Notes: generated by a model not told the origin, from the letters alone. Shown: positions 41,444 to 54,780, numbered from the stretch's first letter. The stretch: DNA of 64,000 nt from an uncultured Candidatus Binatia bacterium (GCA_965216585.1 CBDCGC010000002.1:483160-547159); one strand, 5' to 3'. Numbers and translations: made by a program.

Positions 41444-43444
<2,001 letters not shown>

Positions 43445-43495
43445 AGCGCGAACCGCGCCGTCGTTCGATGGCGGGCGCTGCAAAACGATCGCAGA

Positions 43496-45979
43496 ATGGT
43501 GCAGGGTGAGCGGGTGACACGTATTCGCGGTACCGTCTTCCTCTTCTGCTCCGGCCTGGTCACCCTCGTCTACGAGGTTCTGTGGCTGCGCCAGCTCGGT
43601 CATCTCTTCGGCGTCAGCGCCCACGCGACGGCGACCTGCCTGGCCGTCTTCTTCTCCGGTATGGCGCTCGGCCAGGCGATCGCGGCGCGCCGTTGCGCCG
43701 CGCTGGCGTCGCCGCTGCGCACCTACGGGCTGCTCGAAATCGCCGCCGCAGCGGCGGCCTTGCTGGCGCTCTACTTGCCCGACATCTACCGCGCTCTCTA
43801 CGTCCTGCCGGCCGGCGACACCGGTTTCGGCGCCCACGCCACCCGCATCGCTCTGGCGGCCGTCGTCTTGCTGCCGCCGGCGGCGCTGCTCGGTGCGACC
43901 TTGCCGGTGATGGTGGAAGCGGAGACCCGCCACCTCGGCAACGCCCGCTTGCGCGCCACCGCGCTCTACTTCGCCAACACCGCCGGTGGCGTCGCCGGCG
44001 CTTGCCTGGCCGCCTTCTGGCTGGTGCCGGCGCTCGGCTACTACGCCTCCTACCTGGTCGCCGTCATCGCCGGTGCGTCGATCGGCGCCGCCGCCCTGGC
44101 CAGCGCCGGGCAGGCGCCGGCGGCCAAGCCAGTTGGCGCGGCACTGGCGCCGCCGCCGGCATCCCTGCGCTTGTCCGCCGTCGCCTTCGTCTCCGGCGCC
44201 CTCGCCCTGGCGATGGAGGTGATCTGGACGCGCATGCTGGCGCAGGTACTGCACAACTCGGTCTTCTCCTTCGCCGCCGTGCTCGCCGTGTTGCTGCTGG
44301 CTCTGAGCCTCGGCGCCGGCATCGTTCACCTGGCGCTGCGGCGCTGGCCGGCACCGCCGGCCGGCATCCTCGCCGGCCTCTTCGCCGCCGCCGCCGTCGC
44401 CTGCGCCGCCTCGGCGCTGGTCTTTCAGGCGCAGACCGACGGCCTGGCCTATCTGGGTGGCGACGCCGACTGGGCGTCGTACATGGTCGACGTCTTCAGC
44501 CTTGCCGCCGCCGTGATGTTGGTGCCGGGAGCGTTGCTCGGCGCCATCTTGCCGTACGCCGTGGCGCTGCTGGCGGGCGGCGACGCCATGCCCGGCCTGC
44601 GCGTCGGCCGCCTGATCGCCAGCAACACCGCCGGCTCGGTGATCGGCTCGCTGCTCGCCGGCTTCGCACTCCTGCCGGCATTGGACCTGTGGCCCGCCTT
44701 GCTCGCCGTCGCCGCTCTCTACGCCATCGGCGCCGCGCTGTTCACACCGCGACCGGCCGGCGTCGCCGCCGCCGTCGTCGCTCTCTTCCTCCTCTTTGTT
44801 CCGCTCGACCCGCGCGGTCTGCGCCGCGTCGACTTCGACCCGCACGGTGAGACGGTTCTCGAAGTCGTCGACTCGGCGGCCGGCACGGTTGCCGTCGTCC
44901 AGCGCGGCGACGTCGTCGCCCTGCGGCTCAACAACAGCTACACCGTCGGCACCAACGCCAACATCGTCAACGACCGGCGCAAGGCCGATCTACCCCTTCT
45001 CCTGCACCGGCGACCGCGCTCGGTCTTCTTCCTCGGCATGGGTGCCGGCATCACCGCGGCGGCCGCCCTCGACCACCCGCTGAGCAGCATCACGACTTGC
45101 GAGCTGGTACCGGAGATTGCCCGTCTCGCCGCTAAATATCTGCCCGAACAAAGCGGGCGACTGAGCAGCGATCCGCGCTCGCGCGTCGTCGCCGGCGACG
45201 GCCGCCACTATCTGGCGCGCAGCCGCGAGCGCTTCGACGTCATCATCGCCGACCTCTTCGTTCCCTGGCACAGCGGCGCCGGCGCTCTCTACTCGATCGA
45301 GCACTTCGCCAACGTCCGCCAGCGGCTCGGCGACGGCGGCCTCTTCGCCCAGTGGTTGCCGCTCTACCAGATGTCGCGGCAGGAGTTGGAGATCATCGCC
45401 CGTACCATGCTCGAGGTCTTCCCGCGCGTCACCCTGTGGCGCGGCGACCTGCTGCCGCGCTCGCCGGCCATCGCCCTGATCGGCCATGCCGGCGACCAGC
45501 CCCTCGATCTCCGCGACGTCCGCCGCAACGTCCGCCGCCGCATCGGCGAGCACGGCGCCGACGCCGCCGTCACCGACGCCCTGGCGCTGCTCTTCTACGC
45601 CGGCAACCTCAGCCAGGCGCGCCAGCTCTTCGCCGCCGCACCGATCAACAGCGACGATCGCCCGATCATCGAGCACGGCGCGCCGATCACCCAACGGCGC
45701 GTCAAAGCCGGGCAGGGCGCCTGGCTGACCTCGCTCGAGCTGCTGCGCTTCTACGCCGAGCTCGCCGCCGCCGTGCCGCCCGAGCGCGACGCCTTCCTAC
45801 ACAATCTCGACCATCGTCAGATCGAGTATCCGAAAGCGGGGAGGGACCTCTACGCAGCCTCCGTTCACCGCGACACCGGCGATTTTCGCCAGGCCGAGAT
45901 TGCGCTGGAGGCCTTTCGCCAGCGCGTGCCTGCGGAAGTGGTCGAGATCTTTGCCCAGCGAATCCCGTCGATAAAATAG
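43496..45979 (+). CDS. Fused multi-pass membrane domain / spermidine-synthase-like (PABS) protein with C-terminal extension
   Basis: 827 aa. N-terminal ~12 TM helices, then PABS-like core (TCELVPEIARLA...FDVIIADLFVPW) and an ~200-aa C-terminal helical region. Confidence 0.65.
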   Translation: MVQGERVTRIRGTVFLFCSGLVTLVYEVLWLRQLGHLFGVSAHATATCLAVFFSGMALGQAIAARRCAALASPLRTYGLLEIAAAAAALLALYLPDIYRALYVLPAGDTGFGAHATRIALAAVVLLPPAALLGATLPVMVEAETRHLGNARLRATALYFANTAGGVAGACLAAFWLVPALGYYASYLVAVIAGASIGAAALASAGQAPAAKPVGAALAPPPASLRLSAVAFVSGALALAMEVIWTRMLAQVLHNSVFSFAAVLAVLLLALSLGAGIVHLALRRWPAPPAGILAGLFAAAAVACAASALVFQAQTDGLAYLGGDADWASYMVDVFSLAAAVMLVPGALLGAILPYAVALLAGGDAMPGLRVGRLIASNTAGSVIGSLLAGFALLPALDLWPALLAVAALYAIGAALFTPRPAGVAAAVVALFLLFVPLDPRGLRRVDFDPHGETVLEVVDSAAGTVAVVQRGDVVALRLNNSYTVGTNANIVNDRRKADLPLLLHRRPRSVFFLGMGAGITAAAALDHPLSSITTCELVPEIARLAAKYLPEQSGRLSSDPRSRVVAGDGRHYLARSRERFDVIIADLFVPWHSGAGALYSIEHFANVRQRLGDGGLFAQWLPLYQMSRQELEIIARTMLEVFPRVTLWRGDLLPRSPAIALIGHAGDQPLDLRDVRRNVRRRIGEHGADAAVTDALALLFYAGNLSQARQLFAAAPINSDDRPIIEHGAPITQRRVKAGQGAWLTSLELLRFYAELAAAVPPERDAFLHNLDHRQIEYPKAGRDLYAASVHRDTGDFRQAEIALEAFRQRVPAEVVEIFAQRIPSIK

Positions 45980-46216
45980 CACATTGTTTTGTTCAAATGG
46001 TGAGCACTTAGCCCGATAGGGTCCATCATATGACTTGTCCGCAGCTCAACGTTTCCATTGACACTACGCGCCCGACGGGTTCTAAATGGGGAACGTAATC
46101 AAGAAGAGTAGACTGGTCGCGAGCGGTGTATCTCGCACCGGTGTACTGGGGAATCGATGGGGAACTCGATGATGATCAAGGTTTGTAGACCACCGCGCCC
46201 GGCTGCCCGCAAAACC

Positions 46217-48391
46217 ATGGCGTACAAGGCTTTGCTTGCTACATCGCTGTGGACGCTCAGCCTTCTCGGCGAGCCGCTGCTGGCCCACCCGGTGAGCGGG
46301 AATCTGGCGAGCAACTGTCGCATCGTGGCGACCAACTCGAGTATCAGCGTCTATTTGGACGTCGACAACACCACAGAACAGCAAGCCAAGAACCTCACCG
46401 CGGGCCTGCTCGATGGAACTAATATCGGCGACGCCTCGGTTTTCATCAACGTCACTCCAGGTCGACAGACCATCTTGCCCGGCAAGCGCAAGACCTTTCG
46501 CTGGCGTGGCGAGATTTTCGGCAACGGATTTCTCGATCTGACCGTCAGTGTCACCGGCACCTGGGACGACGGGGATCCGGCGACGACGGGTTTGGTGAAC
46601 TGCCCGCGACTGACGGTCGGCGATCCGGCCAGCCTGACGCCGCCGCCGACCAACACGGAGGCGATCCAGCCGACCTTCGGCTCGCAGCCGACGGCGACAC
46701 CGAGTCGCCGCGACCGGCGCGACACGCCGGTGCCGGTCACCCGCGCACCGACCAACACGCGGCGGCCGACGCGCACACCGATTCCGCCGCGACCGACGCG
46801 CACGCGCATCCCGACCAGCACGCGGCGGCCGCCGAGCACACCGATCGAACGCGATACTCCTGGTGACAACCGGCCGACGCGCACTCCCGACATCGGCGGT
46901 GAGCCGACACCGGAACGCCGCGTTCGACCGACCCGCACACCGATCGTCGGCCGCGCGACGCGCACGCCGATTGGCGGGAGGGCGACCCGTACACCGGTGC
47001 CGCAGCGGCCGACCCGCACGCCGATCCAGCTGCGGCCGACGCGCACGCCGCGCGGCGCCAACGTGCTGCCGACCGTGCCGCGCGAAGGGCAGGTTCCGGC
47101 CGAGGTGGTCGGCCGTCTGACCGCCAACTGCAGCCTGCGCCAGACCAACGATCAGATTGCCGTTCGCATGGTCGTGCAAAACACCACCGCCGTCATGGTC
47201 ACCGATCTCGCCGCCAGCTTTCTCGACCTGACGCCGGAGGGCGGTGCGCTCTTCTTCGACCCGACCGGGCCGAGTCCGCGTTCGTACGGCATCTTCGCAC
47301 CGGGCGACAGCGTCGTCTTCGAGTGGGGCGGCCGTATGAACGACGTCGGCGTCATCGGTTTCGCAGCATCCGTCGCCGGTACGTCGCCGGGCGGCAACCC
47401 GGTCATCAGCGGACTCATCGACTGCGGTTTTGGCTCGGGGCCGAACGGCTCCTTCGACAGCTCGCTGTTCACCGGTTCGTGTAGCATCCGCACCGGCCGC
47501 GGCGGCGCCGTCACGCTGCTCATCAACAACCGCAGCGGCGAGCCGATGTCCGAAATCGATCCGCGCTTGATCGACACCTCGTCGACCGGCACGGCGCAGG
47601 TCAATAGCCTGCGCGGTCCGGCGCCGCGGCGCCTGCGCCGGCTCGCCGGCGGTCAAACCCAGGAGTTTCTCTGGGAAGCCGATGTCCTCGGCAGCGGCAA
47701 CGTGAGCATGACGTTCCAGGCCGATGGCACGGTCGAGAGCGGTGACCGCATCAGCACGCCGACGATCACCTGCTCGACCGAGCTGGCGGCCACCGGCGGC
47801 TTGCCCGATCTCTCTGTCGACGAGCTCGATCAGCGCGGCTCCTGGGTCGTCGAAGAGCAGTTCTTCGGCCCCGGTCACTGCGCTCTCTTCGAAGGCTGTG
47901 TCGGCGGCAGCGGGGTGCGCCGGCTGCTCAAGTTCAACACGACGACACCCAACCACGGCCCCGGCGACCTCTTCCTCGGCGATCCGACCAACAATCCGGA
48001 GTTCATCTTCTCCGAGTGCCACCAGCACTTCCACTTCGAGGATTACGCCATCTATCGCCTGCTCGACATGAACGGCAATCAGGTGGCGCAGGGGCACAAG
48101 CAGGCCTTCTGCCTGGTCGACCTGTGGCGCCCGCCGGGCTCCAACGGTGCCCGCAACCCGGGCTTCCCCGACTGCGGTTTTCAGGGCATCAGCGCCGGCT
48201 GGGCCGACGTCTACCACCGCGATCTGGACTGCCAGTGGATCGACATCACCAACGTCCCGGACGGCCGCTACATCCTCGAGGTCCACATCAACCCGGCCCG
48301 GGTGGTGCAGGAATCGAACTACGCGAACAACATCGCGCGCAACGAGGTGTGCATCGGCATCCCAGAGGACGACGGCTGTGCGCGATTCTGA
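46217..48391 (+). CDS. Secreted lysyl oxidase (LOX) family protein: signal peptide, three Cys-bracketed ~110-aa domains, PTRTP-rich linker, C-terminal LOX catalytic domain
   Basis: C-terminal ~170 aa: CHQHFH (48016-48033), GHKQAFCLVD (Lys 48097-48099), VYHRDLDCQWIDITNV (Tyr 48212-48214), ILEVHINP...ESNYANNIARN. These align with animal LOX WEWHSCHQHYH / GHKASFCLED / TYGADIDCQWIDITDV / ILKVSVNP...ESDYTNNVVRC. Start taken at MAYKALLATSLWTLSLL (signal peptide). Confidence 0.8.
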   Translation: MAYKALLATSLWTLSLLGEPLLAHPVSGNLASNCRIVATNSSISVYLDVDNTTEQQAKNLTAGLLDGTNIGDASVFINVTPGRQTILPGKRKTFRWRGEIFGNGFLDLTVSVTGTWDDGDPATTGLVNCPRLTVGDPASLTPPPTNTEAIQPTFGSQPTATPSRRDRRDTPVPVTRAPTNTRRPTRTPIPPRPTRTRIPTSTRRPPSTPIERDTPGDNRPTRTPDIGGEPTPERRVRPTRTPIVGRATRTPIGGRATRTPVPQRPTRTPIQLRPTRTPRGANVLPTVPREGQVPAEVVGRLTANCSLRQTNDQIAVRMVVQNTTAVMVTDLAASFLDLTPEGGALFFDPTGPSPRSYGIFAPGDSVVFEWGGRMNDVGVIGFAASVAGTSPGGNPVISGLIDCGFGSGPNGSFDSSLFTGSCSIRTGRGGAVTLLINNRSGEPMSEIDPRLIDTSSTGTAQVNSLRGPAPRRLRRLAGGQTQEFLWEADVLGSGNVSMTFQADGTVESGDRISTPTITCSTELAATGGLPDLSVDELDQRGSWVVEEQFFGPGHCALFEGCVGGSGVRRLLKFNTTTPNHGPGDLFLGDPTNNPEFIFSECHQHFHFEDYAIYRLLDMNGNQVAQGHKQAFCLVDLWRPPGSNGARNPGFPDCGFQGISAGWADVYHRDLDCQWIDITNVPDGRYILEVHINPARVVQESNYANNIARNEVCIGIPEDDGCARF

Positions 48392-48568
48392 GAAAATACA
48401 CAAATCCGCAGAATTCGGGAGAAAGTTCTTGACTGCGGGAGTGAAAATTGAGTAGTTTGCGACCATCGTTCTATAGTATCGGAATTGGGGGACTAGAGAT
48501 CTTGCGAAAAACTGCTGACATTTTCGAAACTTACGGGAATTCAGCGGCGATTTGCAGGTTCCTAGATC

Positions 48569-48576
48569 AAGGAGGA
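48569..48576 (+). promoter_or_regulatory. Shine-Dalgarno AAGGAGGA, 8 nt upstream of the ATG at 48585
   Basis: Strong consensus RBS within a 190-bp lower-GC intergenic region. Confidence 0.6.
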
Positions 48577-48584
48577 CAGCTCAT

Positions 48585-50105
48585 ATGACGAAACTGCGAT
48601 TGGCTCAGGTCACGCTTTTGAGCGTGGCCATCGCGGTATTCACCGTGGGGAGTGCGGGGGCGCAAGCAGTCCGCACGCGGAAACCCACCAAGACACCACG
48701 TCCGACTCGCACGCAGATCGTAGATCAGGCGAGGACGCGCAAGCCGACCAAGACGTCGCGGCCTACCCGCACGCAAGTGATCGACCAGGCGCGCACCCGC
48801 AAGCCGACCAAGACCTCGCGGCCGACTCGCACGCAGATCGTCAAAGATCTGCGCACGCGCAAGCCGACCAAGACCTCGCGGCCGACTCGCACGCCGATCG
48901 TCAAAGATCTGCGCACCCGCAAGCCGACCAAGACCTCGCGGCCGACCCGTACGCCGATCGTCAAAGATCTGCGCACGCGCAAGCCGACCAAGACCTCGCG
49001 GCCAACTCGTACGCCGATCATCAAGGACGTGCGCACGCGCAAGCCAACCAAGACCTCGCGGCCGACCCGTACGCCGCTGAGTGTCGAGGTGAGGACGCGC
49101 AAGCCGACCAAGACGCAACGGCCGACTCGCACGCCGATTCTCAAAGAGGTGAGGACGCGCAAGCCGACCAAGACCTCGCGGCCGACCCGCACGCCGATCA
49201 GCTTGGATGTACGCACGCGCAAGCCGACCAAGACACAGCGGCCGACCCGTACGCCGATCGTCAAAGATGTGCGCACGCGCAAGCCGACCAAGACGCAGCG
49301 GCCGACTCGTACGCCGATCATCAAAGACGTGCGCACGCGCAAGCCGACCAAGACGATGCGTCCGACTCGTACGCCGATCTCAAACGAGATCCGCACGCGC
49401 AAGCCGACCAAGACCTTGCGGCCGACCCGTACGCCGATTCTCAAAGAGGTGAGGACGCGCAAGCCGACCAAGACCTTGCGGCCGACCCGTACGCCGGTCT
49501 CGAACGAGATTCGCACACGCAAGCCGACCAAGACACTGCGGCCGACTCGTACGCCTTTCATCAAGAACGAGAGAACGCGCAAGCCGACCAAGACCCTGCG
49601 GCCGACTCGTACGCCAGTTTCGAACGAAGCCCGCACGCGCAAGCCGACCAAGACCCTGCGGCCGACCCGTACGCCTGCACCTCTCGAGGCCCGCACGCGC
49701 AAACCGACCAAGACCCTGCGGCCGACTCGCACGCCGGTTCCCGAGGAAGCGCCTGAGGCGTTCGATCCTAGCGACGTGACTGCTCGGTGCTATGCCAGCA
49801 ACAAGGGTGGTCCCGACGGCAAGAAGGATCTCGTCCGCATCCTGATGCAGGTGTCAAACCGCTCTGGCGCGGCCGTCCGAGTTAGCGCCGGTGGAATCGA
49901 CATCAGTGGCTCTGGCAACTATGAGCCAGTTACTGGCGCGGCAGGGAATTCAAAACCCGTCAGAAGCTCGGTGGTCCTCTCTTGGACAATTCGAGTTCGC
50001 GGAACGCTCAGCGTGACGGCTACTGCGAATGCATCGGGCCCGAATGGCGAGCAGATTCCGTTGTCAGCCGACTGCGGGAGTGTGACAGGAGCACCTGCTC
50101 TCTAA
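48585..50105 (+). CDS. Secreted Lys/Arg/Thr/Pro-rich tandem-repeat protein: 18 x 20-aa repeats RTRKPTKTxRPTRTPIxKDV plus a C-terminal Cys-bracketed ~110-aa domain
   Basis: Signal peptide MTKLRLAQVTLLSVAIAVFTVGSAGAQA. Repeats have perfect 60-nt periodicity. C-terminal domain resembles the Cys-bracketed domains of the upstream LOX protein. Confidence 0.75.
   Translation: MTKLRLAQVTLLSVAIAVFTVGSAGAQAVRTRKPTKTPRPTRTQIVDQARTRKPTKTSRPTRTQVIDQARTRKPTKTSRPTRTQIVKDLRTRKPTKTSRPTRTPIVKDLRTRKPTKTSRPTRTPIVKDLRTRKPTKTSRPTRTPIIKDVRTRKPTKTSRPTRTPLSVEVRTRKPTKTQRPTRTPILKEVRTRKPTKTSRPTRTPISLDVRTRKPTKTQRPTRTPIVKDVRTRKPTKTQRPTRTPIIKDVRTRKPTKTMRPTRTPISNEIRTRKPTKTLRPTRTPILKEVRTRKPTKTLRPTRTPVSNEIRTRKPTKTLRPTRTPFIKNERTRKPTKTLRPTRTPVSNEARTRKPTKTLRPTRTPAPLEARTRKPTKTLRPTRTPVPEEAPEAFDPSDVTARCYASNKGGPDGKKDLVRILMQVSNRSGAAVRVSAGGIDISGSGNYEPVTGAAGNSKPVRSSVVLSWTIRVRGTLSVTATANASGPNGEQIPLSADCGSVTGAPAL
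48669..49748 (+). repeat. 18 tandem copies of a 60-bp coding repeat
   Basis: Unit approx cgcacgcgcaagccgaccaagacctcgcggccgac(c/t)cg(c/t)acgccgatcgtcaaagatctg, with third-position and C-terminal codon variation. Confidence 0.9.
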
Positions 50106-50143
50106 AGCGGACTGTTCGAGCTGCCTTCCTTGAGAAGGGTGAA

Positions 50144-50178
50144 AGGGTCAGGCCTTCCGGGTCTGGCCCTTTCTTTTT
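50144..50178 (+). terminator. Putative intrinsic terminator after the repeat-protein gene
   Basis: agggtcaggcc-ttccg-ggtctggccct forms an 11-bp stem (2 G-U pairs) with a 5-nt loop, followed by TTCTTTTT. Confidence 0.45.
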
Positions 50179-50284: not shown

Positions 50285-51781
50285 ATGCGCGTACGAATTC
50301 TCGGGCTTTACTCTCTAATTGCGTTTCTCCTGCTGGCGGCGAGCGCGGTGGCGCAGACGCCCAGCGTGACGCCCACCCCGGGGGGCGACTGTTGCTCGAT
50401 TCACCCCGGGCCGAGCTGCGACATTCCGGCTTGTGCGGCCTGTGTCTGCGAAGACCAGGAAGAGCCTCTGTGCTGTGTCGACGGCAGTCCGGAGGGCTGG
50501 GATCGCATCTGTCTCGCCTTTGCCGAGAGTGACGACTGTGCCGAGGTCTGTTTGTGCGGCGAGCCGCCGACGCCGACGCCGACGCCGGGTGGTGACTGCT
50601 GCTTGCCGCACGCCGGTAGCCGCTGCGACGACGAAGCGTGTACGACCTGCGTCTGCGACCGCGACAGCAACTGCTGCACGGGACCTTGGGACGCGTTCTG
50701 CGTCGAGTCGGCGCGTACGGTCGACGAGTGCGCGGGCGAGTGCTCGGATTGTATGCCGCTGCCGACCATCCCGCCGCTGGCGACGCCGACGCCCGGACCT
50801 TGTTGCGAAGGCCGCGATCTCAATCCCGGTTGCGATGAGAGTATGTGCGAGAGCTGCGTCTGCGCCGTCGACGCAAACTGCTGCCTCGACACCTGGGACG
50901 AGCTCTGCGCCGTCATCGCGGTCGAGGAGTGCGCCATCGATTGCGTCTGCGTCGAGGACGGCGACTGCTGTAGCGGACACGACGGTTTTGGTTGCAATGA
51001 CCGGCGTTGTCAGGAGTGTGTCATCGCCCTCGATCCGGAATGTGGCGAGCAGTGGGACGACGACTGCGCATCGGAGGCGCGGCTCGAGTGCGCGCTCGAC
51101 TGCACCTGTGGCGATTGCTGCGCCGAGAATCCGGACGAGGTACCGGGCTGCGGCGTCAAACCCTGCCAAGACTGCGTTTGCGAGATCGACGAGGAGTGCT
51201 GCACGGAGCTGTGGGATGCGCAATGCGACTCGATCGCTCGCGATGAATGCTCGCTCGACTGTCCGTGCTTGAACTGCTGCGAGGAACAGGTGGTTCCGGG
51301 CTGCGGTGAGAAGGAGTGTCAGACCTGTGTCTGCGCCCTCGATGCGAATTGCTGCGATGAAGTATGGGACGGCATCTGTGCCGCCCGCGCCGTCGAAGAG
51401 TGCGACCGCCGCTGCGAGTGCGAGGCCGGCAGCAACTGTTGTATCGCCCGGCCGACCGAGACGGGTTGCGACGAAAGCGCCTGCGAAGCGTGTGTCTGCG
51501 GCGTCGACGATTTCTGCTGCACCGACCTGTGGGATTCCACCTGCTCGGACGAGATCACCGTCAACGAGTGCGCCGCCGAATGCTCATGTGATCCTGGGAG
51601 CTGTGTCGGCGATTGCGATGGCGACGGCGAAGTCTCGATCGGTTCGCTCATCCGCTGCGTCGGCGTCGCCCTCGGCAACTCTCCGGTCAGCGAGTGCCGC
51701 GCCTGCGATGCCGATGGAGACGGCGAGGTCTCGATCGGCGAGCTCATCCAGGCCGTCGGCAACGCCCTCGAGGGCTGCTGA
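50285..51781 (+). CDS. Secreted Cys-rich repeat protein: 7 x ~52-aa 10-Cys repeats plus C-terminal dockerin-like pair
   Basis: Signal peptide MRVRILGLYSLIAFLLLAASAVA. Repeat pattern CC-x6-8-GC-x3-C-x2-CVC-x4-CC-x3-WD-x2-C-x8-EC-x3-C-x-C. PTPTPG linkers. C-terminal CVGDCDGDGEVSIGSLIRCVGVALG...CDADGDGEVSIGELIQAVGNALEGC. Confidence 0.7.
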   Translation: MRVRILGLYSLIAFLLLAASAVAQTPSVTPTPGGDCCSIHPGPSCDIPACAACVCEDQEEPLCCVDGSPEGWDRICLAFAESDDCAEVCLCGEPPTPTPTPGGDCCLPHAGSRCDDEACTTCVCDRDSNCCTGPWDAFCVESARTVDECAGECSDCMPLPTIPPLATPTPGPCCEGRDLNPGCDESMCESCVCAVDANCCLDTWDELCAVIAVEECAIDCVCVEDGDCCSGHDGFGCNDRRCQECVIALDPECGEQWDDDCASEARLECALDCTCGDCCAENPDEVPGCGVKPCQDCVCEIDEECCTELWDAQCDSIARDECSLDCPCLNCCEEQVVPGCGEKECQTCVCALDANCCDEVWDGICAARAVEECDRRCECEAGSNCCIARPTETGCDESACEACVCGVDDFCCTDLWDSTCSDEITVNECAAECSCDPGSCVGDCDGDGEVSIGSLIRCVGVALGNSPVSECRACDADGDGEVSIGELIQAVGNALEGC

Positions 51782-51826: not shown

Positions 51827-52174
51827 AAGGGTGGTGTCGCGCCGCGAGACGTTCGAGGGTTCACCGCCGCAATCCAGATAGCCGGGTTAGCCGATCCCAG
51901 CCCGGTTCACCGGGCTTTCTTCCCTCAGCCGTGGGCTTCAGCCCTCGGCTGTTTGCACGCACACATTCACTCGTTTCCCACCCGCCGCCGAGCGCTGAAG
52001 CGCCCGGCTCAAATCGTCAAAGCCCCTGCGGGGCTGAAACGAAGGGTGGTGTCGCGCCGTCGGGCCGCGAGACGCTCGAGGTTTCACCGCCGCAATCCAG
52101 ATAGCCGGTAGCCGATCCCAGCCCGGTTCACCGGGCTTTCTTCCCTCAGCCGTGGGCTTCAGCCCTCGGCTGTT
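51827..52174. repeat. Two ~127-132-bp direct repeats (51827-51953, 52043-52174) in a convergent intergenic region
   Basis: aagggtggtgtcgcgccg...ttcaccgccgcaatccagatagccgg..cccggttcaccgggctttcttccctcagccgtgggcttcagccctcggctgttt. Contains the cccggttcaccggg palindrome. Confidence 0.7.
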
Positions 52175-52175
52175 T

Positions 52176-52485
52176 GTCCGTACACGTCTCCGCCCGCCGC
52201 TGCGAATGCGGAGGCTCCGCTCTATTGGCCGGCGGTTGTCCGTACACGTCTCCGCCCGCCGCTGCGAATGCGGAGGCTCCGCTCTATTGGCCGGCGGTCG
52301 TCCGTACACGTCTCCGCCCGCCGCTGCGAATGCGCAGGCGCCGCTCTATTGGCCGGCGGTTGCTCGCACACATCTCCGCCGGCCGCTACGAGGACGGAGA
52401 CCCCGCGCTCTGGGCCGGCGTTCGCGCACGTCTCCGCCCCCGGCTCCGTGTGCTAGGCCGCGCGCTATTGGCCGGTGGCGGCGTC
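52176..52485. repeat. ~5 tandem copies of a 62-bp hairpin-containing repeat
   Basis: gtccgtacacgtctccgcccgccgctgcgaatgcggaggctccgctctattggccggcggtt, with stem CTCCGC...GCGGAG. The last copy abuts or overlaps the 3' end of the minus-strand gene ending at 52465. Confidence 0.7.
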
Positions 52486-53451: not shown

Positions 53452-53517
53452 CAGCGTCAACCCCAACGTTTTCCGGGAGGGTAACGGCTTCGACCTGGCT
53501 TGTCCACGGGAAAGAAT

Positions 53518-53648
53518 GGGAGGGCGAGTCGCCTGACGAGCCGCCGGTCCCCCGACCCCAGCGGGAGGGCGAGTCGCCTGACGAGCCGCCGGTCCCCCGA
53601 CCCCAGCGGGAGGGCGAGTCGCCTGACGAGCCGCCGGTCCCCCAGAGC
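53518..53648. repeat. REP array, 3 x 46 bp, upstream of the RAYT gene
   Basis: gggagggcgagtcgcctgacgagccgccggtcccccgaccccagcg x2 plus a truncated third copy. Core GGCGAGTCGCC is near-palindromic. Confidence 0.8.
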
Positions 53649-53736
53649 CGTCGACCACCCCGGAACCATCACAACATCGAATGTCAACTCCCCATGCCGC
53701 CAGCGCAATCCGACCGGCACGCGTACCCTGACCCAC

Positions 53737-54207
53737 ATGCCGCATTCATCCCGCAAACGTCCCGCGGCATGGAACCCGCCGGAAAGCCTTACCGACTACA
53801 TCGTGTTCCTGACGGTATGCACGAAGCACCGCAAAGCCGCACTTGCGGACACCAAAGTTCACGCTGAGCTCGTGCGAATTTGGATGGACCAGCCATCTTG
53901 GCTGGTGGGCCGGTACGTCCTCATGCCCGATCACGTGCACTTGTTCTGCTCGCCCTCGATCTCGACAACGGTGCCGCTACCCGGTTGGGTTCGGTACTGG
54001 AAATCGCACCTGGCGCGTTCCGGTGTTTGCGGAACGCAGGTATGGCAGTCGGGATTCTGGGATACGCGGATACGCAGCGACGAGAGTTTCGAGGCGAAGT
54101 GGAGCTACGTTAGAGACAATCCGGTTCGCGCCGGGCTTTGCCGAAATGCAGACGAGTGGCCTTTTCAGGGGGAGATTTATCCTCTGAAGCGGCGAGAGGC
54201 GGATTGA
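53737..54207 (+). CDS. REP-associated tyrosine transposase (RAYT; IS200/IS605 TnpA-like HUH enzyme)
   Basis: 156 aa. HUH motif LMPDHVHLF and C-terminal catalytic Tyr context WSYVRDNPVRAGL. Flanked on both sides by REP arrays sharing a 24-nt core in inverted orientation. Confidence 0.7.
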   Translation: MPHSSRKRPAAWNPPESLTDYIVFLTVCTKHRKAALADTKVHAELVRIWMDQPSWLVGRYVLMPDHVHLFCSPSISTTVPLPGWVRYWKSHLARSGVCGTQVWQSGFWDTRIRSDESFEAKWSYVRDNPVRAGLCRNADEWPFQGEIYPLKRREAD

Positions 54208-54237
54208 ATTCGAAACCGTGCCGCGCGGCGTGGTCGG

Positions 54238-54780
54238 TTGGGGTGTGTTCGGGTCGCCGGGTGGCTCGTCAGGCGACTCGCCCTCCCAAGACAAGAATGA
54301 CGGGGGTGTGTTCGGGTCGCCGGGTGGCTCGTCAGGCGACTCGCCCTCCCAAGACAAGAATGACGGGGGTGTGTTCGGGTCGCCGGGTGGCTCGTCTGGC
54401 GACTCGCCCTCCCAAGACAAGAATGACGGGGGTGTGTTCGGGTCGCCGGGTGGCTCGTCAGGCGACTCGCCCTCCCAAGACAAGAATGACGGGGGTTGTT
54501 CGGGTCGCCGGGTGGCTCGTCAGGCGACTCGCCCTCCCAAGACAAGAATGACGGGGGTTGTTTGGGTCGCCGGGTGGCTCGTCAGGCGACTCGCCCTCCC
54601 AAGACAAGAATGACGGGGGTTGTTTGGGTCGCCGGGTGGCTCGTCAGGCGACTCGTCCTCCCAAGACAAGAATGACGGGGGTTGTTCGGGTCGCCGGGTG
54701 GCTCGTCAGGCGACTCGCCCTCCCAAGACAAGAATGACGGGGGTTGTTCGGGTCGCCGGGTGGCTCGTCAGGCGACTCGC
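54238..54780. repeat. REP array, ~9 x 62 bp, downstream of the RAYT gene
   Basis: gggggtgtgttcgggtcgccgggtggctcgtcaggcgactcgccctcccaagacaagaatgac repeated head-to-tail. Contains ggctcgtcaggcgactcgccctcc, the reverse complement of the upstream array core. No unique spacers. Confidence 0.85.

What the first reader, a model, noticed from the sequence alone, without database searches (positions are those of the whole stretch)
46217..50105. Shared Cys-bracketed ~110-aa domain and shared RPTRTPI linker between the LOX protein and the Lys-repeat protein
LOX protein segments NCRIVATNSSISVYLDVDNTT...GLVNCPRLT, NCSLRQTNDQIAVRMVVQNTT...GLIDCGF and GSCSIRTGRGGAVTLLINNRSGEP...TITCS share a pattern with the repeat protein C-terminus RCYASNKGGPDGKKDLVRILMQVSNRSGAAVRVSAGG...SADCGS. 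The pattern is Cys ... (V/L)x(V/L)xNxT/SNRSG ... aromatic ... Cys, suggesting a CARDB/DUF11-like beta-sandwich. Both proteins also carry RPTRTPI-type linkers. Two independent shared modules in adjacent genes suggest duplication and shuffling within one functional locus. A common docking partner or surface is possible.
Basis: inference. Interest (0 to 1): 0.6.

Follow-up and report, generated by a model that had tools for sequence, protein, structure and literature searches.

The report
Lysyl oxidase with a candidate substrate partner
A secreted bacterial lysyl oxidase and the neighbouring repeat protein, which has one invariant lysine every 20 residues, share a beta-sandwich domain and a linker in a gene cluster conserved across Binatia-like bacteria, making the repeat protein a candidate natural substrate for a bacterial lysyl oxidase, an enzyme whose role in prokaryotes is still unknown.

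Summary
The LOX protein (46157-48391) has three clearly homologous ~100-aa Cys-bracketed domains, A1-A3 (Smith-Waterman z 11-22). The C-terminal domain B of the repeat protein (49785-50081) belongs to the same family. Pairwise evidence for B is weak. Profile evidence is decisive: hhalign 97% probability, E 7.6e-11, and 27 bits against a family HMM. AlphaFold models of A2 and B (pLDDT 94.5 and 91.4) are both Ig-like beta-sandwiches with overlapping PDB neighbours (TRAP-beta, adaptin ear, ApaG).

The family is a divergent, Cys-bracketed branch of the CARDB/DUF11 superfamily. Pfam's own models miss it. B is closest to the A2 type, and A2 also directly follows the RPTRTP linker. So one contiguous linker-plus-A2 module was probably duplicated, rather than two independent modules.

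The triad LOX, K-repeat protein and Cys-rich dockerin-like protein is conserved in every Binatia-like locus long enough to show it. It is absent from about 70 other LOX loci. In 236 repeat units the K-P-T triplet is invariant. The LOX linkers are almost Lys-free (13 K against 1310 R).

Best reading (inferred, about 50%): the repeat protein is the dedicated LOX cross-linking substrate, and the shared domain co-localises the two proteins.

The parts
46157..48391 (+). Secreted lysyl oxidase gene (744 aa from the first ATG; the database version P0151 starts at 46169 and has 740 aa). Architecture: signal peptide, A1, RPTRTP linker, A2, A3, LOX catalytic domain.
   Evidence: ORF. Pfam Lysyl_oxidase E 4.2e-36. 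P0151 is 100% identical. The architecture is shared by about 50 orthologues.
46313..46615 (+). Domain A1, a Cys-bracketed CARDB-like beta-sandwich (LOX aa 53-153).
   Evidence: 72.9 bits against the family HMM.
46616..47125 (+). Arg/Pro/Thr linker with RPTRTP(I) units (27-nt period at 46928-47057). 170 aa with 31 Arg and 0 Lys.
47126..47431 (+). Domain A2 (LOX aa 324-425), the type closest to the repeat protein's domain B.
   Evidence: AF2 pLDDT 94.5. Foldseek TRAP-beta TMq 0.72. Domain typing.
47474..47776 (+). Domain A3 (LOX aa 440-540).
47777..48388 (+). LOX catalytic domain. CHQHFH aligns to the LOXL2 copper-binding segment CHRHYH, GHKQAFCL to GHKASFCL, and GWADVYH to GCWDMYR.
   Evidence: Pfam hit. 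phmmer against LOXL2 5ZE3, E 9.9e-32, with the alignment shown.
48448..48477 (+). Sigma-70-like promoter match between the LOX and repeat genes (weak evidence).
   Evidence: 9 of 12 positions match; 1 site found against 0.7 expected.
48552..50105 (+). K-repeat protein gene. The longest ORF starts at TTG 48552. The likely true start is ATG 48585 (MTKLRLAQ..., as in the orthologues). Architecture: signal peptide, 18 x 20-aa repeats, domain B.
48672..49751 (+). 18 tandem 20-aa units, RTRKPTKTxRPTRTPxxxxx (60-nt period). The core is invariant at protein level despite synonymous variation.
   Evidence: TRF, units. 549 synonymous against 45 non-synonymous pairwise core-codon differences. K-P-T is invariant in 236 units from about 20 loci.
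49785..50081 (+). Domain B, a Cys-bracketed CARDB-like beta-sandwich of the A2 type. It has an extra loop of about 8 residues after the first Cys.
   Evidence: AF2 pLDDT 91.4. Foldseek.
50141..50173 (+). Terminator-like hairpin (15-bp stem plus T run) just after the repeat gene.
50285..51781 (+). Third conserved gene of the cluster: a secreted, acidic, Cys-rich repeat protein (88 Cys, 105 Asp+Glu, 2 Lys) with a C-terminal dockerin/EF-hand-like pair.
   Evidence: Conserved downstream position.

Best explanation
This is a conserved three-gene extracellular module of Binatia-like bacteria.

Shown: gene 1 is a secreted copper lysyl oxidase whose catalytic domain is preceded by three Cys-bracketed CARDB-like beta-sandwich domains and an Arg-Pro-Thr linker that is almost free of lysine. 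Gene 2 is a secreted protein made of the same kind of linker, expanded into 7-23 units of 20 residues. Each unit carries one invariant Lys in a K-P-T triplet. The protein ends in one beta-sandwich domain of the same family, closest to LOX domain A2.

Inferred origin: gene 2 arose by duplication of the contiguous 'linker-A2' segment of the oxidase gene. One half of each linker unit then changed from (R)RPTRT to (R)KPT(K/S)T.

Inferred mechanism: gene 2 is the dedicated protein substrate of the oxidase. The enzyme would convert the periodic Lys side chains to allysine. These aldehydes condense spontaneously with each other or with remaining lysines, as in elastin and collagen. The extended Pro/Thr-rich chains would thereby be cross-linked into an insoluble extracellular layer. 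The shared domain would bring enzyme and substrate to the same place, either by binding each other or by binding the same surface. That surface might involve the acidic Cys-rich, dockerin-like product of gene 3.
For: Homology of the four domains. Same fold: models with pLDDT 91.4 and 94.5, and 19 PDB entries shared between their top-50 Foldseek lists. B is of the A2 type in 8 of 8 orthologues, scoring 12-29 bits above A1 or A3. The order linker then A2-like domain is the same in both genes.

The LOX is probably active. LOXL2's copper-binding His segment and the segments around its cofactor Lys and Tyr are conserved in the alignment, and the paper PMC4448552 says these residues predict competence.

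Linkage: the order LOX, K-repeat(+B), Cys-rich is seen in the window, in 8 genome loci and in 3 metagenome loci. Every truncated contig is consistent with it and there is no counter-example. None of about 70 LOX loci from Myxococcota and other lineages has an adjacent periodic Lys protein.

Lys-specific selection: K-P-T is invariant in 236 units anchored independently on the other half of the unit. Within the window the core shows 549 synonymous against 45 non-synonymous pairwise codon differences. Arg is used at all other basic positions.

Lys depletion of the neighbours: LOX linkers have 13 K against 1310 R in 53 orthologues. Whole LOX orthologues are 0.96% K against 3.1% background. The Cys-rich protein has 2 K in 498 aa.

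From the literature: Lys next to Pro defines the elastin 'KP' cross-linking domains, and LOX chemistry yields allysine and then spontaneous cross-links (PMC7947355). An archaeal LOX oxidises Lys-containing polypeptides (PMC6452851).
Against: There is no biochemical evidence. Substrate status rests on adjacency, domain sharing and Lys conservation. The A domain, the RPTRTP linker and the dockerin-like tail also occur in other secreted proteins of the lineage that are not next to a LOX: P0017 lies beside a peptidase M10 gene, and P0211 and P0215 are further examples. Sharing these modules may therefore reflect only a lineage-wide toolkit. The second Lys of KPTKT is not conserved (K 45%, S 41%). 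A terminator-like hairpin separates gene 2 from gene 3, and a promoter-like site precedes gene 2, so co-transcription is not shown. Low Lys content is partly expected in a 65% GC genome. No direct test of domain-domain binding was possible. The source organism of the window is not identified directly.
Confidence: 0.5

Rival explanations
1. Lineage toolkit without an enzyme-substrate relation. The Cys-bracketed domain and the RPTRTP linker are generic building blocks of secreted proteins in this lineage. The repeat protein would be a stalk, spacer or surface-fibre protein whose adjacency to LOX reflects its origin by local duplication, or a shared destination, and not catalysis on it.
For: The same domain and linker occur in proteins without LOX: P0017, P0021, P0040, P0211-P0214, and P0215, which has the dockerin-like tail. 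P0017 is not near a LOX. Pro/Thr-rich linkers are common in secreted bacterial proteins (general knowledge).
Against: It does not explain an invariant Lys, rather than Arg, in 236 of 236 K-P-T triplets in a GC-rich genome. It does not explain the near absence of Lys from the LOX linkers built on the same motif. It does not explain strict retention of the gene order at 42-65% LOX identity.
Confidence: 0.27
2. Scaffold or tether. The repeat protein anchors LOX, and perhaps the Cys-rich protein, to a surface or polymer. The basic repeats would bind an anionic partner (the acidic Cys-rich protein, exopolysaccharide or eDNA). The true LOX substrate would be something else, for example other Lys-bearing linker proteins or small amines.
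For: In this window the repeats are strongly basic (45 K plus 72 R in 360 aa), and the next gene product is strongly acidic (105 D+E in 498 aa). The shared domain could mediate assembly. The archaeal LOX has relaxed amine specificity (PMC6452851).
Against: In most orthologues the spacers are acidic (EVED, PPEE, GSEEE), so net positive charge is not conserved whereas the K-P-T triplet is. Charge binding would not require Lys rather than Arg.
Confidence: 0.2
3. The similarity of segment B to the LOX domains is chance or compositional.
For: B against A1 and A3 is not significant pairwise. A 3-sequence HMM gives only 2.6 bits.
Against: hhalign 97.1%, E 7.6e-11. Family HMM E 1.2e-7. phmmer E 1.4e-8 to an orthologue's A2 domain. 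Orthologous B domains score 33-54 bits. Concordant high-confidence models.
Confidence: 0.01

Closest known systems
Animal lysyl oxidases (LOX/LOXL; LOXL2 structure 5ZE3) acting on elastin and collagen
   Same: Homologous catalytic domain (113 bits to LOXL2; the segments carrying its copper-binding His and cofactor Lys and Tyr are conserved). Secreted. N-terminal non-catalytic domains precede the catalytic domain, as the SRCR domains do in LOXL2-4. The candidate substrate has Lys next to Pro, as in the elastin KP cross-linking domains (PMC7947355).
   Different: The accessory domains are CARDB-like beta-sandwiches, not SRCR domains. The candidate substrate is a 20-aa Arg/Thr/Pro repeat protein unrelated to collagen or elastin. 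It is encoded next to the enzyme and shares a domain with it. No activity has been shown.
Previously described prokaryotic LOX (Haloterrigena turkmenica HTU-LOX; Streptomyces and Sorangium LOX)
   Same: Same Pfam family. The first His of the animal copper motif is absent in bacterial sequences (PMC4448552), and here the corresponding segment reads CHQHFH.
   Different: Most of those proteins are reported as LOX domain only (PMC4448552). Their native function is called enigmatic or cryptic (PMC6452851), and no genetically linked protein substrate is described. About 70 non-Binatia LOX loci examined here lack the A domains and the repeat gene.
CARDB (PF07705) / DUF11 (PF01345) / TRAP_beta (PF05753) Ig-like domains of giant bacterial surface proteins
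   Same: The A-domain profile retrieves such arrays. 505 cluster representatives score E<1e-3. Single copies score 32-42 bits, down to i-Evalue 7e-6 against 1.8 billion sequences, and the hits overlap Pfam CARDB stretches. The fold is the same sandwich, and the nearest PDB neighbour of A2 is TRAP-beta. The conserved strand motif V-x-V-x-N-x-(T/S/G) is present.
   Different: The Pfam models do not detect the domains. Cys residues bracket the domain ends in 20 of 148 hit proteins, but in only 2% of domain copies in the giant arrays. Here there are 1-4 copies joined by RPTRTP linkers, not long head-to-tail arrays.
Pro/Thr-rich linkers of secreted bacterial enzymes
   Same: Extended, low-complexity Pro/Thr-rich spacers between folded domains.
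   Different: The motif is strictly periodic and Arg-rich (RPTRTPI). In the repeat protein it is under strong purifying selection at protein level, with one invariant Lys per unit. That is unusual for a passive spacer.

Membership tests
Lysyl oxidase (Pfam PF01186) | Significant match to the family model above the curated cut-off | tested here: met
   125 bits against a 20.4-bit cut-off, E 4.2e-36, aa 586-730. 113 bits to LOXL2 5ZE3.
Lysyl oxidase (Pfam PF01186) | Copper-binding His cluster, and the Lys and Tyr that form the LTQ cofactor | tested here: met
   In the alignment to LOXL2, CHQHFH pairs with CHRHYH, GHKQAFCL with GHKASFCL, and GWADVYH with GCWDMYR. Which residues are functional is taken from PMC4448552 and general knowledge of LOX.
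Lysyl oxidase (Pfam PF01186) | Amine oxidase activity on peptidyl lysine, inhibited by BAPN | not testable with these tools
   Needs recombinant protein.
CARDB / DUF11 (Pfam PF07705 / PF01345) | Match of the domain itself to the Pfam model | tested here: not met
   None of 45 A/B domains hits CARDB or DUF11 even at E<=1. The only CARDB hit in the LOX protein (E 0.038) lies in the catalytic domain.
CARDB / DUF11 (Pfam PF07705 / PF01345) | Homology by profile to domains that Pfam calls CARDB/DUF11 | tested here: met
   A Binatia-only HMM hits single copies in P0009, P0028, P0039, P0044 and P0065 at 32-42 bits, and the hits overlap CARDB stretches (for example P0039 1026-1111 against CARDB 1015-1087).
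CARDB / DUF11 (Pfam PF07705 / PF01345) | Ig-like (E-set) beta-sandwich fold | tested here: met
LOX-cross-linked matrix proteins (elastin/collagen-like substrates; a functional class) | Secreted protein with Lys in a recurrent, conserved sequence context | tested here: met
   The N-terminus resembles a signal peptide (MTKLRLAQVTLLSVAIAVFTVGSAGAQA, judged by eye). K-P-T is invariant in 236 units.
LOX-cross-linked matrix proteins (elastin/collagen-like substrates; a functional class) | Lys converted to allysine and cross-links formed in vivo | not testable with these tools
   Needs mass spectrometry or chemical labelling.
Dockerin (PF00404), for the third gene only | Match to the Pfam dockerin model | tested here: not met
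   Dockerin_1 E 0.21 (12.3 bits against a 22.9-bit cut-off) and EF-hand_1 E 9e-4, below cut-off. This is a resemblance only.

The most novel reading that the evidence does not exclude
Binatia-like bacteria build a lysyl-oxidase-cross-linked extracellular protein material from a dedicated substrate encoded next to the enzyme. This would be the first natural protein substrate, and the first physiological role, assigned to a prokaryotic LOX. It would be an elastin-like enzyme and substrate system that arose independently. The substrate evolved from the enzyme's own linker-plus-domain segment by Arg-to-Lys change, and the enzyme stays Lys-poor, which would limit self-modification.
Probability: 0.4. 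Interest if true: 0.8.

Novelty: new variant of a known kind. Interest (0 to 1): 0.62.

Why it matters
Lysyl oxidases are central to animal connective tissue, yet the function of their prokaryotic homologues is described as enigmatic or cryptic (PMC6452851; PMC4448552). This locus offers a concrete, testable candidate: a genetically linked, domain-sharing, periodically Lys-bearing secreted protein, conserved with the enzyme across a candidate phylum known here only from metagenome-assembled genomes. If confirmed, it would show that enzymatic Lys-aldehyde cross-linking of extracellular proteins exists in bacteria. It would inform the debate on the origin of LOX, and it would supply a simple two-component system for making cross-linked protein materials. 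It also defines an undescribed Cys-bracketed subfamily of CARDB-like domains that Pfam misses, and a new accessory-domain architecture for LOX.

Tried and rejected
- Word-indexed homologue searches with B alone and with A2+A3 found nothing. The exhaustive profile search was needed.
- Exact-sequence look-ups of the LOX protein, the repeat protein and P0151 found no record, so the source contig of the window was not identified.
A DNA pattern for K-P-T-x-T-x-R-P-T-R-T-P replaced it. Of the 43 loci returned, 35 were chance single matches with none of the cluster features and one (L113) had only a 3-unit K-P-T ORF. Seven were true cluster loci.
- I tested whether the Cys-rich third gene is related to anything in LOX loci of Myxococcota, prompted by the Cys-rich C-terminal domain reported for a Sorangium LOX (PMC6452851). 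There were no phmmer hits at E<=1e-5.
- Pfam and NCBIfam gave nothing meaningful for the repeat protein; the Titin_Z and Metal_resist hits are below cut-off.
- The antisense ORF 48725-49732 (GC3 0.83) was considered as the real gene and rejected. The + frame has GC3 0.82 in the repeats, a signal peptide and a folded conserved C-terminal domain, and its orthologues keep that frame.
- 'Polycation' as the conserved property of the repeats was rejected, because the spacers are acidic in most orthologues.


Full report
**Anatomy**

Region 46.1-51.8 kb carries three same-strand genes downstream of uvrB (41444-43444) and a fused MFS/spermidine-synthase gene (43496-45979).

- Gene 1 (46157-48391, 744 aa) ends in a Pfam Lysyl_oxidase domain (E 4.2e-36). 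It aligns to human LOXL2 (5ZE3, 113 bits) with CHQHFH, GHKQAFCL and GWADVYH opposite LOXL2's CHRHYH, GHKASFCL and GCWDMYR. These segments carry the copper-binding His and the cofactor Lys and Tyr (PMC4448552).
- Gene 2 (longest ORF 48552-50105; likely start ATG 48585) has a signal-peptide-like N-terminus, then 18 exact-period 20-aa units RTRKPTKTxRPTRTPxxxxx, then a 100-aa C-terminal domain.
- Gene 3 (about 50285-51781) is an acidic protein with 88 Cys and a dockerin/EF-hand-like tail.

**Checking the observation**

The four quoted segments are at the stated places, and each has one Cys near each end.

- A1, A2 and A3 of the oxidase are unambiguous paralogues (Smith-Waterman z 11-22 against shuffles).
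- Segment B of the repeat protein is only marginally similar in pairwise comparison: z 5.7 to A2 and not significant to A1 or A3. A 3-sequence HMM gives it 2.6 bits. From the window alone the claim would be shaky.
- An exhaustive profile search with A1-A3 found 505 cluster representatives. An HMM built from 565 domain copies scores B at 27 bits, E 1.2e-7 over the six-frame window, with nothing else below E 0.5.
- B alone hits the A2-type domain of a LOX orthologue at E 1.4e-8.
- hhalign of eight orthologous B domains against the window's three A domains gives 97.1% probability, E 7.6e-11, in register up to the C-terminal Cys.

The RPTRTP motif is likewise real and confined to these two genes in the window: 21 DNA matches against 0.37 expected.

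**Fold and family**

AlphaFold2 models of B (with an MSA of 45 A/B domains) and of A2 (with an MSA of 52 orthologues) are confident all-beta sandwiches, pLDDT 91.4 and 94.5. Foldseek against the PDB returns weak but concordant Ig-like neighbours for both: TRAP-beta, gamma-adaptin ear/GAE, ApaG, the COPI gamma appendage and a lacto-N-biosidase domain. Nineteen entries are shared between the two top-50 lists, and the best match is A2 to TRAP-beta at TMq 0.72.

Pfam finds no family on any of 45 such domains, even at E<=1. However, the giant multi-copy proteins retrieved by the A profile are Pfam CARDB/DUF11/TRAP_beta/DUF7507 arrays. An HMM built only from Binatia-like domains hits individual CARDB copies at 32-42 bits, down to i-Evalue 7e-6 against 1.8 billion sequences. 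The domain is therefore a divergent branch of the CARDB-like E-set superfamily. The Cys bracket marks the branch: it is present in 20 of 148 hit proteins, but in only 2% of domain copies in the giant arrays.

**Relatives and context**

A profile of full-length orthologues retrieved about 50 LOX proteins (42-65% identity) with the same architecture: signal peptide, A1, RPTRTP linker, A2, A3, LOX. The genome loci carrying them are metagenome-assembled genomes. Two are labelled Candidatus Binatia and the others 'uncultured bacterium' or 'Deltaproteobacteria bacterium'.

In every such locus that extends far enough, the LOX gene is followed by a 20-aa K-repeat gene ending in an A-like domain (33-54 bits), and then by the Cys-rich gene. 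One locus (L011) has a variant motif, TPxRKPTxTxRPTRTPIELT. A metagenome scan with a repeat-derived DNA pattern found seven more cluster loci. Three show all three genes and four are truncated but consistent. No repeat gene was seen without its partners. None of about 70 LOX loci from Myxococcota and other lineages has the A domains or an adjacent periodic Lys-containing protein.

**Origin of the shared parts**

HMMs built separately for the A1, A2 and A3 types place all eight B orthologues with A2, 12-29 bits above the alternatives. In the oxidase, A2 directly follows the RPTRTP linker. In the repeat protein, B directly follows the repeats. The 20-aa unit reads as two half-units, (R)KPT(K/S)T and (R)PTRTP. 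One duplication of a contiguous linker-A2 segment, followed by expansion and an Arg-to-Lys change in one half-unit, is thus simpler than two independent shared modules. This is inference.

The modules are also used elsewhere in the lineage. P0017, P0021 and P0040 have 3-4 A domains with PTRTP linkers and no LOX. P0211 and P0213 have Lys-bearing linkers. P0215 combines one A domain with the dockerin-like tail of gene 3.

**Evidence bearing on function**

- In the window, 13 core positions of the repeat are invariant in protein across the 18 units while most vary synonymously. Pairwise core-codon differences are 549 synonymous against 45 non-synonymous. Selection therefore acts on the peptide.
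- Across 236 units from about 20 loci, anchored on the other half-unit, K-P-T is invariant. The second Lys of KPTKT is not conserved (K 45%, S 41%).
- The spacers are acidic in most orthologues. The conserved property is therefore a specific Lys, not net charge.
- The oxidase linkers built on the same motif avoid Lys: 0 K against 31 R in the window, and 13 K against 1310 R in 53 orthologues. The background K/(K+R) is 0.27. The LOX proteins overall (0.96% K) and the Cys-rich protein (2 K in 498 aa) are also Lys-poor.

**Interpretation**

The best-supported mechanism is that the repeat protein is the oxidase's dedicated substrate. Its periodic Lys residues would be oxidised to allysine and condense into cross-links. 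This is the chemistry known for elastin, whose KP cross-linking domains also place Lys next to Pro (PMC7947355). The shared beta-sandwich would co-localise enzyme and substrate.

The homology, the fold and the conserved linkage are shown. Catalysis on the repeats, cross-linking and docking are inferred. I give the mechanism about 0.5. The rivals are a lineage-wide module toolkit with no enzyme-substrate relation (0.27) and a scaffold or tether role (0.2). Chance similarity is excluded.

The literature searched describes the native function of prokaryotic LOX as enigmatic or cryptic, and reports mostly single-domain architectures (PMC4448552, PMC6452851). Searches found no description of a linked substrate.

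**Limits**

- The window's organism is inferred from its relatives.
- Signal peptides were judged by eye.
- Operon structure is uncertain. There is a promoter-like site at 48448-48477 and a terminator-like hairpin at 50141-50173.

Noticed in passing
window 50285-51781 (+): Third conserved gene of the cluster. It encodes a secreted 498-aa protein with 88 Cys, 105 Asp+Glu and only 2 Lys. It is built of about 10 repeats of the form CC..H.G..CD...C..CVC..D..CC...WD..C and ends in two DGDGEVS EF-hand/dockerin-like loops. No Pfam family reaches its cut-off. It is always found downstream of the K-repeat gene in related loci.
   Followed up: partly
P0215, P0211, P0213; L084 1575-3491 (P0017): The Cys-bracketed domain, the RPTRTP linker and the dockerin-like tail are recombined in other secreted proteins of the lineage. 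P0215 is linker, one A domain and the dockerin-like tail. P0211 and P0213 have two A domains joined by a linker containing TPKPTKE..LRPTRTP, which are possible further Lys sites. P0017 has four A domains and lies next to a peptidase M10 gene.
   Followed up: partly
window 53518-53652, 54177-54700, and ORF 53500-54207 (+): Arrays of a short GC-rich palindromic repeat (45 nt x3 and 62-63 nt x8, in inverted orientation) flank an ORF with a weak IS200-like Y1 transposase hit (E 7e-4). This looks like a REP/RAYT-type arrangement. The repeats create spurious 'GESPDEPP' ORFs on both strands.
   Followed up: partly
window 51836-52480: A roughly 130-nt segment is duplicated 221-223 nt apart (51836-51964 and 52059-52185, 94-96% identical). 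It is followed by a 62-nt tandem array (about 5 copies, 52114-52480) in the intergenic region after the Cys-rich gene.
   Followed up: no
window 48260-48337 (LOX aa 702-727): The only Pfam CARDB signal in the LOX protein (E 0.038; also seen in orthologue P0029, E 0.005) falls in the C-terminal strands of the catalytic domain (GRYILEVHINPARVVQESNYANN), not in the A domains. It may be a chance motif resemblance to the CARDB C-terminus.
   Followed up: no
window 49788-49850 (repeat protein aa 413-433): Domain B has a loop of about 8 residues after its first Cys that the LOX domains lack. The loop contains a Lys and a Pro that are invariant in all 8 orthologues (C-x4-K-x2-P).
   Followed up: no
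window 48552-48671 and 49737-50105: Third-position GC of the non-repeat parts of the repeat gene is 0.61-0.62, against 0.82 in its repeats and about 0.85 in neighbouring genes. No better alternative frame exists. The cause is unexplained.
   Followed up: partly
window 41444-45979; L001, L003: In related loci the LOX gene directly follows uvrB. In this window a fused MFS/spermidine-synthase gene (827 aa, NCBIfam MFS_SpdSyn E 4e-34) is inserted between them. Downstream synteny is conserved (a coiled-coil protein on the minus strand, then TANGO2, AAA and VWA_CoxE genes).
   Followed up: no
L003 11400-11950; L001/L004 8355-8487: In two related assemblies the repeat gene is broken, by a frameshift before the B domain in L003 and by a run of N in L001/L004. 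These are most likely assembly problems in the 60-nt tandem repeats and not real pseudogenes.
   Followed up: no
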